DNA of 48,329 nt from Candidatus Omnitrophota bacterium (GTDB taxonomy: Bacteria > Omnitrophota > Gorgyraeia > Aquiviventales > Aquiviventaceae): NCBI GenBank assembly GCA_016206685.1, contig JACQRB010000056.1:1-48329 (forward strand), read 5' to 3'. The notes below the pieces were generated by a model. That model saw only the letters and a program-made list of their open reading frames with translations. It had not been told where the DNA came from and made no database searches. Of the stretch, positions 7,722-17,329 are shown in pieces. Made by a program: the position numbers and the translations under genes. Each line of letters begins with the position of its first letter. Position 1 is the stretch's first letter.

Positions 7722-7853
7722 TGTCCGAATTTGGCAGGGCCTGCCGCTGCGCGACCCCGCCGTCCTCGCTCCGCCAAAGTTCTTTGGCGGATCGTCGGCT
7801 ACGCCCCGACACAAAGTCGGGGCCCGCTCCGCGTCACCCACCAAATTCGGACA
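7722..7853. repeat. Structured dispersed repeat, copy A (MITE/REP-like)
   Basis: Perfect 13-bp IR TGTCCGAATTTGG (7722-7734)/CCAAATTCGGACA (7841-7853); internal hairpins 7770-7791 and 7803-7823; exact 26-, 9- and 17-bp blocks shared in reverse complement with 17228-17319. Confidence 0.85.
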
Positions 7854-7873
7854 GCGCCCACGTCGTTGGACGC

Positions 7874-7902
7874 TTGACTTCGCGAAGCGCTTTCTCTAAG
7901 CT
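7874..7902 (+). promoter_or_regulatory. Putative sigma70 promoter (TTGACT-17-TAAGCT)
   Basis: Hexamers with 17-bp spacer, 8 nt upstream of ATG 7911. Confidence 0.6.
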
Positions 7903-7910
7903 ATCGCATC

Positions 7911-8522
7911 ATGACGGCCGTCGTGATGCACGCGCATCCCGCCTTCGGTACAGGCCACGCGCCGGTTTCAGCGACGGGCGTGCCCAGCCACAAGCTGGGC
8001 ATGTGGGTGTTCCTGGCCTCGGAGGTGATGTTCTTCACCGGCCTGATCGCGGCCTATGTGGTGCTGCGCCTGAGCCACCCCGCCTGGCCGGGCCCTGAGG
8101 GACACCTGAGCGTGGCCTTGGGCACGACCAATACCCTCGTCCTCATCTGCAGCAGCATGACGATGGTGATGGCCTTTGCGCAGGTCCAGCAGGACCGGCA
8201 GCGCTCGCTTCGCGCATTTTTAACGTGGACGATCCTCCTGGGGTGCGTGTTCCTGGGGATCAAGGCCTGCGAATACCGCGTGAAGCTGACCCACCACATT
8301 CTGCCCAGCACGAACGTGTTCTGGTCCTGCTACTACACGCTGACCGGCTTTCACGCCGTGCACGTGTTGGGCGGGATCATCACCAATCTGTGGGTCTTGA
8401 GCCTGGCCTTGCGCCATCGCCTCACCCCCGCGAAAGGCTACGTGGTGGAGCTGGCGGGCTTGTACTGGCACTTCGTGGATATCGTGTGGATCTTTTTGTT
8501 TCCGTTGCTGTACCTGATCTGA
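7911..8522 (+). CDS. Heme-copper (cytochrome c) oxidase subunit III family protein
   Basis: KLGMWVFLASEVMFF, NTLVLICSS, YYTLTGFHAVHV, GLYWHFVDIVWIFLFPLLYL. Confidence 0.95.
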   Translation: MTAVVMHAHPAFGTGHAPVSATGVPSHKLGMWVFLASEVMFFTGLIAAYVVLRLSHPAWPGPEGHLSVALGTTNTLVLICSSMTMVMAFAQVQQDRQRSLRAFLTWTILLGCVFLGIKACEYRVKLTHHILPSTNVFWSCYYTLTGFHAVHVLGGIITNLWVLSLALRHRLTPAKGYVVELAGLYWHFVDIVWIFLFPLLYLI

Positions 8523-8803
8523 TGAGCGACTCGCACGCGCCTGCCTCGACCTACCTGTGGATCTGGTGTTGGCTGGCCGGGCTGATGCTGCTTGGCGTGG
8601 CGTTCTCCGCGCTGCCGTTGTCGAAGTCCACCATCGCCCTGGCGATCTTGACGCTCTCGACGGTGAAGGCCGCGCTGGTCGTCCTGTACTACATGCACCT
8701 GAAATCCGATCGGCGCGTGCTGGCCCTGGTGGCCGTCTTTCCCCTGGTCGTGATCGCCCTCGCGACCCTGCTGGTGCTGTCCAGCCGCCTGGTGACGCTA
8801 TGA
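8522..8803 (+). CDS. Cytochrome c oxidase subunit IV family (caa3-type) small membrane protein
   Basis: TGATG coupling to subunit III; YLWIWCWL...VKAALVVLYYMHLK motif. Confidence 0.88.
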   Translation: MSDSHAPASTYLWIWCWLAGLMLLGVAFSALPLSKSTIALAILTLSTVKAALVVLYYMHLKSDRRVLALVAVFPLVVIALATLLVLSSRLVTL

Positions 8804-9063
8804 GTCTGTTGGCATCCCTCCTTGAGGCGCGCGGTCCCGCCATGGCACTCACCGGCCTCTGGACCTGGGTGGTGGGATCCCCCGTGAGCCTTGCGCTGTG
8901 GGTCGGCAATCGCCTGGCGACGTGGACCGGGTTGCTGGTCGTCTGGCGCAAGCTCAAGGGCGCGCCGGATCGCACCAAGCGCTTTCTATTGTGGGGGCTG
9001 GCGCTGAACGCGGCGTCCCTCCTCCTCTTGCTCGGCGTCCTGCGCCTCCTCGCGGCCCGGTAA
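8800..9063 (+). CDS. Hypothetical small membrane protein
   Basis: ATGA overlap with the subunit IV stop; 87 aa, hydrophobic. Confidence 0.65.
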   Translation: MSLLASLLEARGPAMALTGLWTWVVGSPVSLALWVGNRLATWTGLLVVWRKLKGAPDRTKRFLLWGLALNAASLLLLLGVLRLLAAR

Positions 9064-9086
9064 CGCGCGGATTGAGCGTCACATCC

Positions 9087-15368: not shown

Positions 15369-15375
15369 ATATCAT

Positions 15376-15404
15376 TTGACAATAACTGCTACATTTGCCA
15401 TACT
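15376..15404 (+). promoter_or_regulatory. Promoter of MerR-ExeA-secretin operon (TTGACA-17-CATACT, extended -10)
   Basis: Perfect -35, TG extension, AT-rich upstream tract. Confidence 0.7.
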
Positions 15405-15433
15405 AACAGGTTTTTTTCGAAGGTCCATCAAAA

Positions 15434-15694
15434 ATGAAGACGACGACCATCTTGCTCACCGCCGGCGACATCATCGAGCGCTACCGCCTGTCCTACCAGA
15501 CCCTCAACTACTACACCAACCTGGGGCTCTTGCGGGTGGCCAAACGCGACGGGCATCAGCGGCTCTACGACGGGCGCGATGTCCAACGCAACCTCCAGGC
15601 GGTTGCCCGGCTCAAGGACGAAGGCTATCCCTTGCGGCTGATCTCGCGGATGCTGACCCAAGGGCTCTCCGCGTTGAAGGTGAGCGTGGGATGA
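15434..15694 (+). CDS. MerR-type HTH-only regulator
   Basis: LSYQTLNYYTNLGLL...GHQRLY...LKDEGYPLRLI. Confidence 0.85.
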   Translation: MKTTTILLTAGDIIERYRLSYQTLNYYTNLGLLRVAKRDGHQRLYDGRDVQRNLQAVARLKDEGYPLRLISRMLTQGLSALKVSVG

Positions 15695-16563
15695 GCTACT
15701 ACCGGTTGCTCGGACTGGACCGCGAGCCCTTTTCGACCAATCCGGACCCGGCGTTTTTCTACCAGTCGCCGCAATACCGCGACACGCTGGCCAACCTCAT
15801 CATCGAGTTCCGGCTCAAGCGGGGCTTGAGCGTGGTCCTGGGCGACATCGGCGTCGGCAAGACCACGCTCGGGCGCAAGCTCATCCAGATGCTGCGGGAG
15901 CGCTCCAACTTTCTCTTCCACATGATCCTGGATCCCACCTATCCGTCTGAGGAGCTCTTCTTCCATGACCTCACCCGCACGCTGGGGATCGAGCTGCCCT
16001 GGCAGACCCCGACGCTGGTTGACTACCGGGATGCGCTGGAGCGGTTCCTGTTCCGCAAGGCCCTGCAGGAGGAGCAGACGATCGTGCTCATCATTGACGA
16101 AGCCCACAAGCTCAACGAGCTTTCCCTGGAAGTGTTGCGCCTCCTCCTGAACTATGAGACCAACGACGCCAAGCTCCTGCAGCTGGTGCTCTTGGGGCAA
16201 ATGGAGCTGCTGCCCCTCCTCATGGGCCTGCCCAACGTCGTCGATCGCATCAGCTTGAAGGGCACCTTGACACCGCTCACCTTGCTTGAAACCCACGAGT
16301 TGATCGCCTTCCGCCTGGAGGAGGCGGGCTACCGCTCGCACATCCCTCTGTTCAGCCCGGAGGCGGTTGAGACCATCTGCGCGTATACGGAAGGCTATCC
16401 CCGCCGGATCGCGATGGTGTGCCACCAGGCGTTGCGCCAGCTGGTCATGCGCCGGGAGCGATCGGTTAATGAGGGCTTGGTGGAGGAGCTGATTCAACAC
16501 GAGATGGAGTCGGGATGGGATCCGCCAAGAAGGGCAAGGAAACTCCAGCCGAGCAGTTGCTGA
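15691..16563 (+). CDS. ExeA/GspA-family AAA ATPase
   Basis: GLDREPFSTNPDP, Walker A GDIGVGKTT, Walker B IIDEAH, KLLQLVLLGQ, GYPRRI; ATGA coupling to MerR gene. Confidence 0.92.
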   Translation: MSYYRLLGLDREPFSTNPDPAFFYQSPQYRDTLANLIIEFRLKRGLSVVLGDIGVGKTTLGRKLIQMLRERSNFLFHMILDPTYPSEELFFHDLTRTLGIELPWQTPTLVDYRDALERFLFRKALQEEQTIVLIIDEAHKLNELSLEVLRLLLNYETNDAKLLQLVLLGQMELLPLLMGLPNVVDRISLKGTLTPLTLLETHELIAFRLEEAGYRSHIPLFSPEAVETICAYTEGYPRRIAMVCHQALRQLVMRRERSVNEGLVEELIQHEMESGWDPPRRARKLQPSSC

Positions 16564-17192
16564 GGATGATCGAAGGTCCGGCCGGCGCCGCCAACGTACC
16601 ACACGCGTCGGCCTCGCCATCGCTCAGGCAGCTGTGGGCCGGCTTGCAGGAGCTGCCGGGACGCCTCTTGTCTCGGCTGCGACCCGCCCGACGGGAGACC
16701 GACGCGTTCCTGTGGAACCTGACGATGGCGCAGCGGCTCCTCTGGGGCGTGCTGCTGGCGTTGGGGGCGTATGTCGCGTTCGATTTGGTCGTCGTGCAGC
16801 CCAGGCCGAAGCTTGGGCGCAGGGTCGCGACCGCCACTGTGGAGCCGGCGACGGAGTCCCCGGGAGCCTCCGGCAGTCCCGCGAGTGCGCTCAAGCCGCT
16901 TGCCGAGTATCTGGCCGTCGTGCAACAGGCCAGTCCGTTCGGCGGGGCCGCCTCGATCATCGCCGCCCCCGCCGCGCAAAGCACGAAACAGCGGCTTGCG
17001 GAGCTGGCACAGGGGCTGGTGGTGGTCGGGATCGACCGCAGCGCCAATCCAGAGGCGATCATCGAAGATACGACGCAAAAGCGCACGTATTTCATTAAGG
17101 TGGGTGATGAGCTCAACGGGATGGCCGTTAAGGACATCAGTGTCAAGGGGGTCATCGTCAGCTATGAAGGGGAAGAGCTCCTCGTCAAGTAA
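16515..17192 (+). CDS. GspC/PilP-like membrane-anchored protein
   Basis: One TM then LVVVGI...PEAIIED...YFIKVGD...VKDISVKGVIVSYEGE (T2SS-C HR domain-like). Confidence 0.7.
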   Translation: MGSAKKGKETPAEQLLRMIEGPAGAANVPHASASPSLRQLWAGLQELPGRLLSRLRPARRETDAFLWNLTMAQRLLWGVLLALGAYVAFDLVVVQPRPKLGRRVATATVEPATESPGASGSPASALKPLAEYLAVVQQASPFGGAASIIAAPAAQSTKQRLAELAQGLVVVGIDRSANPEAIIEDTTQKRTYFIKVGDELNGMAVKDISVKGVIVSYEGEELLVK

Positions 17193-17221
17193 GTGGGGCC
17201 TGTCGTGTCGCGCACCCGCTG

Positions 17222-17329
17222 GGCAGCGGGTGACGCGGAGCGGGGGCCCCCGCCGACCGCAGCCGACGACGCGCGCCGGCTGCGTCGGGGCGCGGACGGC
17301 GGGGTCGCGCAGCGGCAGGACCCGCTGCC
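17222..17329. repeat. Structured dispersed repeat, copy B
   Basis: 10-bp IR GGCAGCGGGT/ACCCGCTGCC; blocks 17228-17244, 17261-17269 and 17294-17319 are exact reverse complements of 7823-7839, 7792-7800 and 7740-7765; direct repeat ACCCGCTG at 17214-17221 and 17320-17327. Confidence 0.85.

What the first reader, a model, noticed from the sequence alone, without database searches (positions are those of the whole stretch)
7722..17329. Unannotated structured repeat family: two copies with identical cores but different closing stems
7722-7853 and 17222-17329 share three exact, collinear blocks in opposite orientation: GGGTGACGCGGAGCGGG (17 bp), AGCCGACGA (9 bp) and GGACGGCGGGGTCGCGCAGCGGCAGG (26 bp). 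Between and outside the blocks the sequences differ, yet both copies stay paired: A is closed by a 13-bp IR and B by an unrelated 10-bp IR. The extension of A's stem pairs by G-U only on its minus strand, which matches B's plus strand and hints at a strand-specific RNA or ssDNA fold with GA-rich internal loops. Its ends do not match the local IS1595 TIRs. It is a candidate novel mobile structured RNA or MITE.
Basis: seen in the sequence. Interest (0 to 1): 0.8.

Follow-up and report, generated by a model that had tools for sequence, protein, structure and literature searches.

The report
Hairpin repeat family, partly IS1-type MITEs
The two look-alike stretches are copies of a short, non-coding, hairpin-forming repeat that is scattered through the genomes of a group of groundwater bacteria (Omnitrophota); one of them carries the end sequences typical of a small parasitic DNA element moved by an IS1-type transposase, while its strongly conserved core is still unexplained.

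Summary
A (window 7717-7858, folding strand -) and B (17219-17329, +) share three exact collinear blocks. They belong to an interspersed repeat family with no Rfam match.

- **Distribution:** 17 model hits in this 0.97-Mb MAG. Hits in 26 of 35 genomes of the same Omnitrophota family and 15 of 140 other Omnitrophota genomes sampled.
- **Structure:** a long imperfect hairpin with near-invariant asymmetric internal loops. 97.6% of cells are paired, 21 of 29 pairs show double-sided changes, and G·T outnumbers A·C 132 to 14.
- **Position:** copies lie in short intergenic gaps in either orientation and differ in presence between sister species.
- **TIR class (about 36-41 of 96 sampled copies, including A):** 19-nt terminal inverted repeats of the GGnnnTG type plus an 8-bp target duplication. 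IS1-family insertion sequences with the same ends and duplication occur in two sister genera. These copies are MITEs.
- **Other copies (including B):** the same core closed by unrelated short stems, with no target duplication. In another family, near-identical cores carry a different closing stem in each fetched copy. This is unexplained.
- **Rejected:** RAYT/REP, IS1595 and riboswitch readings are not supported.

The parts
7717..7858 (-). Copy A: complete element with IS1-type terminal inverted repeats (142 bp)
   Evidence: R1 covariance-model hit at 7720-7855, 78.4 bits, E 7.6e-15. Ends read. A contig of run X8 joins 7716 to 7864 with 14 other letters, so it lacks this stretch (table 5c, depth 9.8; weak).
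7840..7858 (-). A, 5' terminal inverted repeat GGCGCTGTCCGAATTTGGT (GGnnnTG type)
   Evidence: Read. Same type as the TIRs of family copies and of the IS1-family elements in G002 and G019.
7717..7735 (-). A, 3' terminal inverted repeat (the + strand reads AGTCATGTCCGAATTTGGC; first G of GGnnnTG changed to A)
   Evidence: Read. The flanking 8-mers 7709-7716 (CCCACCGT) and 7859-7866 (CACGTCGT) agree at 5 of 8 positions, which is a decayed or doubtful target duplication.
7823..7839 (-). A, conserved 5' core block (17 nt, GGGTGACGCGGAGCGGG on the - strand)
   Evidence: Mean column identity of this block across 96 copies is 0.96.
7740..7765 (-). A, conserved 3' core block (26 nt)
   Evidence: exact match.
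17219..17329 (+). Copy B: same core closed by a short stem (CTGGGCAGC... / ...GCTGCC). No IS1-type TIR and no target duplication.
   Evidence: R1 hit at 17212-17339, 83.5 bits. Stem class listed. No TSD signal in this class. No element was found within 1.5 kb of the orthologue of the downstream gene in 11 other genera.
17228..17244 (+). B, conserved 5' core block (17 nt)
17294..17319 (+). B, conserved 3' core block (26 nt)
   Evidence: exact match.
7057..7707 (+). Gene upstream of A (216-aa membrane protein ORF). A lies antisense, 9 nt after its stop codon.
   Evidence: GC3 0.85. Function not tested.
7911..8522 (+). Gene downstream of A (203-aa ORF)
   Evidence: GC3 0.89. Function not tested.
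16515..17192 (+). Gene upstream of B (225-aa ORF). Its stop codon lies 26 nt before B.
17335..19023 (+). Gene downstream of B (562 aa). Its start codon lies 5 nt after B's closing stem.
   Evidence: GC3 0.90. Orthologues of 67-76% identity in 11 other genera.

Best explanation
A and B are two copies of one interspersed, non-coding, palindromic repeat family of Candidatus Omnitrophota.

The family has a constant core and variable periphery.
- **Core:** two conserved blocks, GGGTGACGCGGAGC... and ...GCGCAGCGGCAGG(A)CCC. They pair into a long imperfect hairpin with fixed asymmetric internal loops.
- **Variable apex:** mini forms of about 35 nt lack it, and larger forms carry extra nested hairpins.
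- **Variable closing stem.**

In one major class, which includes A, the closing stem is a 19-nt terminal inverted repeat of the GGnnnTG...TTTGRC type flanked by an 8-bp direct target duplication. These copies are MITEs.

**Inferred mechanism.** TIR-class copies are moved in trans by the DDE transposase of IS1-family insertion sequences. Those elements carry the same ends and make the same 8-bp duplication.

**Shown:**
- the TIR, the TSD and the cognate IS in sister genomes;
- presence/absence differences between relatives.

**Inferred only:** that this particular transposase does the moving.

A looks old. One TIR base has changed and its TSD agrees at only 5 of 8 positions.

B belongs to the class that keeps the core but has short unrelated stems and no TSD. 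It is most likely a derivative produced by exchange between copies, or it spreads by a route not identified here.

The core's pairing is kept by compensatory changes and tolerates G·T far more than A·C. One strand therefore folds as single-stranded nucleic acid (RNA or ssDNA) under selection. What that fold does is not known.
For: **Family membership**
- 17 R1 hits in G000, with additional mini and truncated forms.
- Hits in 26 of 35 genomes and 23 of 31 genera of family f1.
- Hits in 15 of 140 other Omnitrophota genomes sampled.
- In the GTDB-wide scan with the degenerate 26-mer, 18 of 27 stretches are Omnitrophota MAGs carrying the full element. The other 9 are coding-sequence coincidences.

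**Structure**
- 97.6% of 2785 cells are paired, against 84.2% in shuffles and 37-47% in slid controls.
- 21 of 29 pairs show double-sided changes, and 0 of 500 shuffles reach any measure.
- G·T 132 against A·C 14 in paired cells.

**Context**
- All 17 own-genome copies are intergenic, about 9 sense and 7 antisense to neighbouring genes.

**TIR and TSD**
- Strict-pattern rows: 16, that is 15 distinct copies plus one copy read on both strands. 8 rows match 8 of 8 and 4 match 7 of 8. Mismatched-flank controls reach at most 6 of 8, with mean 1.98.
- With fuzzy boundaries, 9 of 35 TIR-class copies reach 7 of 8 or better, against 10 of 1190 controls.

**Cognate IS**
- G002: a 2299-bp element with IRL GGTAGTGTCCTAATTTGGC, flanked by CCCCGGCC on both sides.
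- G019: a 2450-bp element with GGTAGTGCGTCAGTTTGAC, flanked by CACGAGCA on both sides.

**Transposase identity**
- NCBIfam IS1 family model, E 1.9e-13, below the curated cut-off.
- Relatives of 65-79% identity are named 'IS1 family transposase' by NCBI or JGI.

**Literature passages read**
- IS1 family: ends GGnnnTG, direct repeat 8-9 bp (PMC10425158, Table 8).
- GGnnnTG is shared by the IS1 and IS6/IS26 families, with an 8-bp TSD (PMC6807381, Discussion).

**Presence/absence**
- G002 against G044, site 2 and site C.
- B's site is empty in 11 orthologous loci.
- A contig of run X8 lacks A.
Against: - **Most copies are not TIR-type.** Only about 36-41 of 96 sampled copies have the IS1-type inner TIR end. 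A relaxed regex finds both ends in 20 of 97, one end in 11 and neither in 66.
- **No TSD in the other class.** The 55 copies with other stems show no TSD signal: mean 4.07 against control 4.22. B is one of these.
- **The transposase is patchy.** It was found in only 8 of 35 family genomes and not in G000, which is 63% complete. Cross-tabulated with the element:

| | transposase found | not found |
|---|---|---|
| element present | 6 | 20 |
| element absent | 2 | 7 |

- **Conservation is the reverse of a usual MITE.** Core blocks score 0.96 and 0.92 in column identity, against 0.64 for the outer stems.
- **Copy-specific stems in G108.** 12 of 12 fetched copies have the same 87-nt spacing between stems, and four of the closing stems are variants of one another. 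The G108 copies that matched are 92-100% identical in the core. A simple TIR-plus-transposase model does not explain this.
- **A DDE transposase acting on double-stranded DNA does not explain selection for a strand-specific fold.**
Confidence: 0.7

Rival explanations
1. The conserved core is the real unit. It is either a mobile hairpin module of its own or a functional single-stranded RNA/DNA motif. On this reading it gains or exchanges closing stems, by insertion into palindromes, by fold-back copying, or by gene conversion between copies. The IS1-type MITE would then be only one of several vehicles carrying it.
For: - The core is far more conserved than the stems and is kept across families and classes of the phylum with covarying stems.
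- In G108, near-identical cores (92-100% among the G108 copies that matched) carry a different, perfectly complementary closing stem in each of the 12 fetched copies; four of those stems are variants of one another.
- On a tree of core columns, stem class needs 25 changes against a shuffled mean of 28.9. Genome label needs 49 against 72.
- IS1-type TIR pairs also flank other cargo (L185).
- Nested forms occur: about 35 nt, 49 nt and 110-170 nt.
- G·T greatly outnumbers A·C in paired cells.
Against: - No protein or mechanism for such mobility was found.
- At G002 site C both arms are absent from the empty site, so the arms travelled with the insert there.
- No core-less hairpins with the G108 arm sequence were found in G108, which argues against insertion into an abundant pre-existing hairpin family.
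- Orientation relative to genes is random and no conserved promoter was seen, so a discrete RNA gene is unlikely.
- The core tree has only 86 highly conserved columns and is poorly resolved.
Confidence: 0.22
2. It is a REP/REPIN-type element moved by a RAYT (IS200-like Y1 transposase) acting on a single-stranded DNA hairpin.
For: - The hairpin shows strand-specific G·T tolerance.
- The TIR-less class has no TSD.
- Y1_Tnp genes exist in 25 of 35 family genomes.
Against: - No association between element and Y1_Tnp genes:

| | Y1 gene found | not found |
|---|---|---|
| element present | 17 | 9 |
| element absent | 8 | 1 |

- G022 (22 hits) and G019 (15 hits) have no Y1 gene.
- The single Y1 gene of G000 (C32:19123-19455) has no copy beside it.
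- The TIR class has clear 8-bp TSDs, which HUH transposition does not make.
Confidence: 0.04
3. It is a cis-regulatory RNA (riboswitch, leader or terminator) or a member of a described RNA family.
For: Copies sit tightly against gene ends and starts, and the fold is strong.
Against: - No Rfam hit at gathering thresholds in the window.
- None at E up to 1 in 12 copies.
- Only 4 chance-level hits (12.5-16.8 bits, against gathering scores of 35-100) around A, and none around B.
- Orientation is about 9 sense to 7 antisense.
- No T-run follows the hairpin.
- Presence varies at orthologous sites.
Confidence: 0.03

Closest known systems
Bacterial MITEs derived from DDE insertion sequences; here the IS1 family (ends GGnnnTG, 8-9 bp direct repeats; PMC10425158 Table 8 and PMC6807381 Discussion, passages read)
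   Same: - Short, non-coding and multi-copy.
- Intergenic, in either orientation.
- 19-nt TIRs of GGnnnTG type with an 8-bp TSD.
- Cognate IS with the same TIR and TSD in sister genomes.
- Presence/absence differences between relatives.
   Different: - The interior shares nothing with the IS interior.
- The interior is more conserved than the TIRs and is kept phylum-wide.
- Most copies have lost or never had the TIR and TSD.
- In two genera a MITE sits next to the IS with the same 8-mer present three times.
REP/REPIN elements with RAYT transposases (recalled from general knowledge; no paper read here)
   Same: - GC-rich imperfect palindromes in intergenic regions.
- Family-wide vertical persistence.
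- Compensatory changes in the arms.
- No TSD in the TIR-less class.
   Different: - No link to Y1_Tnp genes.
- 8-bp TSDs and DDE-type TIRs in one class.
- The conserved part is an asymmetric internal-loop core, not a 5' tetranucleotide plus a simple stem.
Structured enterobacterial and neisserial MITEs such as ERIC and Correia elements (recalled; not read here)
   Same: About 100-150-bp TIR-bounded repeats that fold into long RNA hairpins when co-transcribed. They can affect mRNA stability depending on orientation.
   Different: Different sequence, host phylum and TSD. No expression data exist here.

Membership tests
MITE (non-autonomous DDE-transposon derivative) | Short, non-coding, many dispersed copies | tested here: met
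   Copies range from about 35 to 170 nt. 17 hits in G000 and up to at least 70 in G002. All own-genome copies are intergenic.
MITE (non-autonomous DDE-transposon derivative) | Terminal inverted repeats shared among copies | tested here: inconclusive
   Met for A and about 36-41 of 96 copies. Not met for B: by relaxed regex 66 of 97 copies have no such end. In G108, stems are copy-specific in all 12 fetched copies.
MITE (non-autonomous DDE-transposon derivative) | Target-site duplication of fixed length | tested here: inconclusive
   An 8-bp TSD is clear in the TIR class: 8 rows match 8 of 8 and 4 match 7 of 8, out of 16 rows, with controls reaching at most 6 of 8. A matches only 5 of 8. There is no signal in the 55 other copies, which include B.
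MITE (non-autonomous DDE-transposon derivative) | Autonomous element with the same ends | tested here: met
   IS1-family elements in G002 and G019 have the same TIR type and perfect 8-bp TSDs. None was found in G000 with this query.
MITE (non-autonomous DDE-transposon derivative) | Insertion polymorphism between relatives | tested here: met
   G002 against G044, site 2 and site C. B's site is empty in 11 orthologous loci. An X8 contig lacks A (weak).
IS1 family (for the partner element) | DDE transposase homologous to IS1 transposases | tested here: inconclusive
   NCBIfam NF033558 scores E 1.9e-13 and 50.8 bits, below the cut-off of 100. Pfam IS1 and IS240 hits are below cut-off. Close relatives are named 'IS1 family transposase' by NCBI or JGI.
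IS1 family (for the partner element) | Ends GGnnnTG and 8-9 bp direct repeats | tested here: met
   One search compared with the passages read.
REP/REPIN-RAYT system | Co-occurrence with, and flanking of, a RAYT (Y1_Tnp) gene | tested here: not met
   no association. The Y1 gene in G000 has no adjacent copy.
IS1595-derived MITE | Ends matching IS1595-family elements of these genomes | tested here: not met
   No convincing TIR around the window's IS1595-type gene. TIRs found at 5 of 15 IS1595 loci (L309, L314, L316, L319, L322) are unlike the repeat's ends.
Any Rfam family | Covariance-model match at or near the gathering score | tested here: not met

The most novel reading that the evidence does not exclude
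The invariant asymmetric-loop core may be a mobile or functional single-stranded hairpin module in its own right. On this reading it acquires a new, perfectly complementary closing stem at each new site, or is swapped between hairpin hosts by conversion. IS1-type MITEs would be only one of its carriers.

This would explain three observations:
- identical cores with unrelated stems (A against B, and 12 of 12 copies in G108);
- the nested architecture;
- conservation across the phylum.
Probability: 0.2. Interest if true: 0.8.

Novelty: new variant of a known kind. Interest (0 to 1): 0.5.

Why it matters
- It gives a first description of an abundant repeat family in Omnitrophota, a phylum known almost only from MAGs. 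I found no mention of MITEs, hairpins or palindromic repeats in the two literature searches or in the one preprint I searched by term.
- The repeats break assemblies. Several copies lie at contig ends or scaffold gaps.
- They sit a few bases from start codons, so they matter for annotation.
- The family links a clear IS1-type MITE to a core that is better conserved than the transposon ends and shows strand-specific pairing. That combination is unusual. It raises a testable question: do some bacterial MITEs carry a selected RNA or ssDNA module, or do they use a hairpin-dependent route of spread?

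Tried and rejected
**Rejected readings**
- **RAYT/IS200 link:** PF01797 across the family shows no association.
- **IS1595 as parent:** PF12762 loci have unrelated TIRs.
- **IS6 as parent:** no PF13610 hit above the cut-off. The weak hits led to the IS1-like gene.

**Searches that led nowhere**
- An autonomous copy at 18 solo-TIR places: only truncated or enlarged non-coding derivatives. One apparent pair proved to be a chance match inside a kinase gene.
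- GTDB-wide TIR pattern scan: too degenerate, 120 mostly chance stretches, uninformative.
- First motif scan of the genome: too noisy.
- G043 against G001 empty site: synteny is broken, so it is not informative.
- L106 against G044: no syntenic match.
- Sites 1, 3 and 4 and site A in the G002/G044 comparison: intergenic DNA is too diverged, or interrupted by scaffold gaps.
- RNA evidence: no RNA holder was listed for the region. This is not evidence on expression.
- Read laying gave no contig bridging B. Contigs stop at the repeat.
- G108 empty sites: relatives are only about 70-75% identical. Three have overlapping stop and start codons at both nuo junctions, and three carry other hairpin inserts. 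I saw hints that arm sequence resembles nearby target sequence, but they are not statistically secured and I make no claim from them.
- Pre-existing hairpin family with the G108 arms: not found.
- Supplementary files of papers were not consulted.
- Gene functions of the flanking ORFs were not tested.

Full report
**1. The observation**

The 26-nt block occurs exactly twice in the window, at 7740-7765 on the minus strand and 17294-17319 on the plus strand. No match occurs in 100 dinucleotide-preserving shuffles. Aligning A(-) with B(+) shows the 17-, 9- and 26-nt blocks collinear, with different sequence between and outside them.

**2. It is a large repeat family**

*Host.* The MAG (G000) has 970,908 bp in 65 contigs, is 63% complete and has 64% GC.

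*Counts by pattern.* G000 holds 6 matches to the 26-mer with up to 3 mismatches. Six of 24 other genera of the same family also have matches, and none of 16 genomes of other families do.

*Counts by covariance model.* I aligned 23 copies and built covariance model R1 from them.
- G000: 17 hits. Twelve are full length (about 110-118 nt between stems), one is a 49-nt form without the apical hairpin, and four are mini forms of about 35 nt.
- Regular-expression scans add further mini, micro and truncated forms, several at contig ends.
- Family f1: hits in 26 of 35 genomes and 23 of 31 genera, with at least 70 hits in the 1.3-Mb G002.
- Rest of the phylum: 15 of 140 other sampled genomes have hits, including other classes. 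The distant copies keep the same loop sequences with covarying stems.

*Host taxonomy.* A GTDB-wide scan with a degenerate 26-mer found 27 stretches. Eighteen are in Candidatus Omnitrophota groundwater MAGs and carry the whole element. Nine, in Sphingomonas, Sphingobium and Prauserella, lack the 5' block and sit in coding sequence, so they are coincidences.

**3. Structure**

RNAalifold on the 23 copies gave 29 pairs, 10 of them with compensatory changes.

On 102 model-aligned hits (98 distinct rows) from about 23 genomes:
- 97.6% of 2785 cells form standard pairs.
- The shuffled value is 84.2%, and partners slid by 1-3 columns give 37-47%.
- 21 of 29 pairs show changes on both sides.
- None of 500 shuffles reaches any of the five measures.

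This alignment was fitted to the model, which favours the structure. The slid controls and the independent MAFFT/RNAalifold result argue that the signal is real.

In paired cells G·T occurs 132 times and A·C 14 times. Seventy-one of the G·T cells are at one fixed pair. The G·T variants are shared by many copies, whereas the A·C cells are scattered. The folding strand is therefore the one that reads GGGTGACGCGGAGC, which is minus for A and plus for B.

Column identity by region:

| Region | Mean identity |
|---|---|
| 5' core block | 0.96 |
| 3' core block | 0.92 |
| Outer closing stem | 0.64 |

**4. Not a known RNA and not a cis-regulator**

- Rfam gives nothing at gathering thresholds in the window.
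- It gives nothing at E up to 1 in 12 copies from other genomes.
- Around A it gives four chance-level hits. Around B it gives none.
- The 17 own-genome copies all lie in short intergenic gaps, often within 3-30 nt of a stop or start codon. About 9 are sense and 7 antisense to the flanking genes.
- No T-run follows the hairpins.

**5. Mobility**

G002 and G044 belong to one genus and their genes are 87-90% identical. Syntenic regions show elements in G002 that G044 lacks.

| Site | G044 | G002 |
|---|---|---|
| Site 2 | ...gatcat\|agccgg... | about 167 extra nt at the same point, ending in ...gcatcat |
| Site C | four bases | 148 nt |

- One orthologous site holds copies of different subfamily and opposite orientation in the two species.
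- For B, I searched 11 orthologous loci in other genera, defined by 67-76% identity of the downstream protein. None has the element within 1.5 kb.
- For A, a contig from a run of a different study joins window 7716 to 7864 with 14 other letters. The left break lies exactly at the end of A's terminal repeat. This rests on one low-depth contig at the 85% likeness setting, so it is weak.

**6. The TIR class is an IS1-type MITE**

*Ends.* I extended the closing stems outward in 96 copies. This showed a class ending in a 19-nt inverted repeat GGnnnTG(G)TC..TTTGRC.

*Target duplication.* Sixteen rows have both ends matching a strict pattern; they are 15 distinct copies plus one copy read on both strands. 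The 8 bases outside the two ends are identical in 8 rows and match 7 of 8 in 4 more. Flanks paired across different copies never exceed 6 of 8 and average 1.98.

*Parents tested and rejected.* These are IS1595, IS6 and the solo TIRs.

*The partner found.* A weak DDE hit led to a 282-aa transposase in G019.
- It matches the NCBIfam IS1 model at E 1.9e-13, below the curated cut-off.
- Its relatives of 65-79% identity are named IS1 family transposase by NCBI or JGI.
- Homologues occur in 8 of 35 family genomes, but not in G000.

*Boundaries of the elements.*

| Genome | Length | IRL | IRR (reverse complement) | Flanking 8-mer |
|---|---|---|---|---|
| G002 | 2299 bp | GGTAGTGTCCTAATTTGGC | GGTACTGTCCTAATTTGCC | CCCCGGCC on both sides |
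| G019 | 2450 bp | GGTAGTGCGTCAGTTTGAC | GGTAGTGCATCAGTTTGAC | CACGAGCA on both sides |

*Literature.* Passages I read state that IS1-family elements have ends GGnnnTG and direct repeats of 8-9 bp (PMC10425158, Table 8). They also state that GGnnnTG is shared with the IS6/IS26 family, whose TSD is 8 bp (PMC6807381, Discussion).

*Copy A.* Its 5' end reads GGCGCTGTCCGAATTTGGT. Its 3' end reads AGTCATGTCCGAATTTGGC in outside-in orientation. Its flanking 8-mers agree at only 5 of 8 positions. A is therefore a TIR-class copy that looks old.

**7. What the MITE model does not explain**

- **Most copies are not TIR-type.** Only about 36-41 of 96 sampled copies have the IS1-type inner end. A relaxed pattern finds both ends in 20 of 97, one in 11 and none in 66.
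- **No TSD outside the TIR class.** The 55 copies with other stems, including B, average 4.07 matching bases against a control of 4.22.
- **B-type stems are shared across genera.** The form CTGGGCAGC.../...GCTGCCCCCAG recurs in several genomes, so this form has spread.
- **G108, a different family.** Its copies are 92-100% identical in the core among those that matched. Yet each of the 12 fetched copies has a different, perfectly complementary closing stem of 11-17 bp, and four of these stems are variants of one another with changes matched on both arms. No core-less hairpins with those arms exist in G108.
- **Stem class does not follow the core tree.** On a poorly resolved 86-column tree of core columns, genome label needs 49 changes against a shuffled mean of 72. 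Stem class needs 25 against 28.9. Cores and stems are therefore shuffled relative to each other.
- **Mosaic copies within G000.** A's interior is closest to copies that carry B-type stems (C25 and C55).
- **TIRs with other cargo.** IS1-type TIR pairs also flank a different insert (L185).

Gene conversion between copies, capture of the core by different ends, or a hairpin-dependent route of spread could each contribute. None was demonstrated.

**8. Rivals**

A RAYT/REP system is not supported:

| | Y1 gene found | not found |
|---|---|---|
| element present | 17 | 9 |
| element absent | 8 | 1 |

No copy lies next to the Y1 gene of G000. A cis-regulatory RNA is contradicted by orientation and by polymorphism. 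A stand-alone functional RNA cannot be tested here, because no RNA run holds the region.

**9. Verdict**

The finding is real. It belongs to a previously undescribed Omnitrophota repeat family.

The searches behind 'undescribed' are these:
- terms 'Omnitrophota' plus 'repeat': 83 papers, and I saw the listing of 15;
- term search inside 10.64898/2026.06.07.730766: no occurrence of MITE, palindrom-, hairpin or interspersed;
- terms 'Omnitrophica' plus 'MITE': one unrelated paper;
- Rfam.

Part of the family, including A, is an ordinary kind of element: an IS1-type MITE. The conserved structured core that A and B share, combined with swapped closing stems, is the unusual and unexplained part.

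Noticed in passing
L337 (G002:C24:52700-55320) and L338 (G019:C17:66480-69280): In two genera a MITE copy lies directly beside the IS1-family element, in the same direction as the transposase gene. The same 8-mer occurs three times, in the order 8-mer, MITE, 8-mer, IS, 8-mer. The 8-mer is CCCCGGCC in G002 and CACGAGCA in G019. This suggests repeated insertion into the duplicated target next to a resident end.
   Followed up: partly
window 14283-14320; L325 1945-1985; L328 ~1330-1370: A stretch of about 35 nt resembling a promoter/operator (TTGAC.. then an inverted repeat CTTGAGCGCT[T/C]AAG, a perfect palindrome in G019 and G050 but with one mismatch in the window, then TATAAT-like) lies 7-8 nt before the start codon of the window's IS1595-type transposase gene. 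It is nearly identical upstream of the IS1-family transposase genes of G019 and G050.
   Followed up: partly
window ~11600-15600: A low-GC island (41-59% against about 63% around it) contains the IS1595-type transposase ORF 14329-15219. Bins 11922-14285 have almost no depth in three runs of other studies, while the flanks are covered. It is probably a strain-specific acquired island.
   Followed up: partly
L107 7621-7703, 16082-16178; L105 12960-13047 (G002): Other unrelated hairpin or repeat families are also present in G002 and absent at the same sites in G044. These small genomes hold several mobile palindromic repeat families.
   Followed up: no
G000:C6:1286-1448 and L107 ~15363-15486: A second small hairpin module (TCGACT..GCTC...GAGC..AGTCGA type) is inserted inside, or replaces, the apex of some copies, giving nested composites.
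   Followed up: no
L396 (G108:C14) ~2974-3126 and homologous sites in G184, G185, G191 (L414, L416, L418): A junction in a conserved G108 operon (genes not identified by any search) has overlapping stop and start codons (ATGA) in three relatives. In four other lineages the same junction carries four different hairpin inserts. It is an insertion hot spot at which the downstream gene's start had to be re-created.
   Followed up: partly
L185 (G002:C15 ~78540-78763): A pair of IS1-type terminal repeats about 200 nt apart encloses a small Cys-rich ORF instead of the usual core.
   Followed up: no
L010 (G008:C13), L083 (G044:C57), G044:C48 ~9925-10025: Runs of about 100 N interrupt or adjoin element copies, with duplicated sequence on both sides. 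They look like scaffold gaps caused by the repeat.
   Followed up: no
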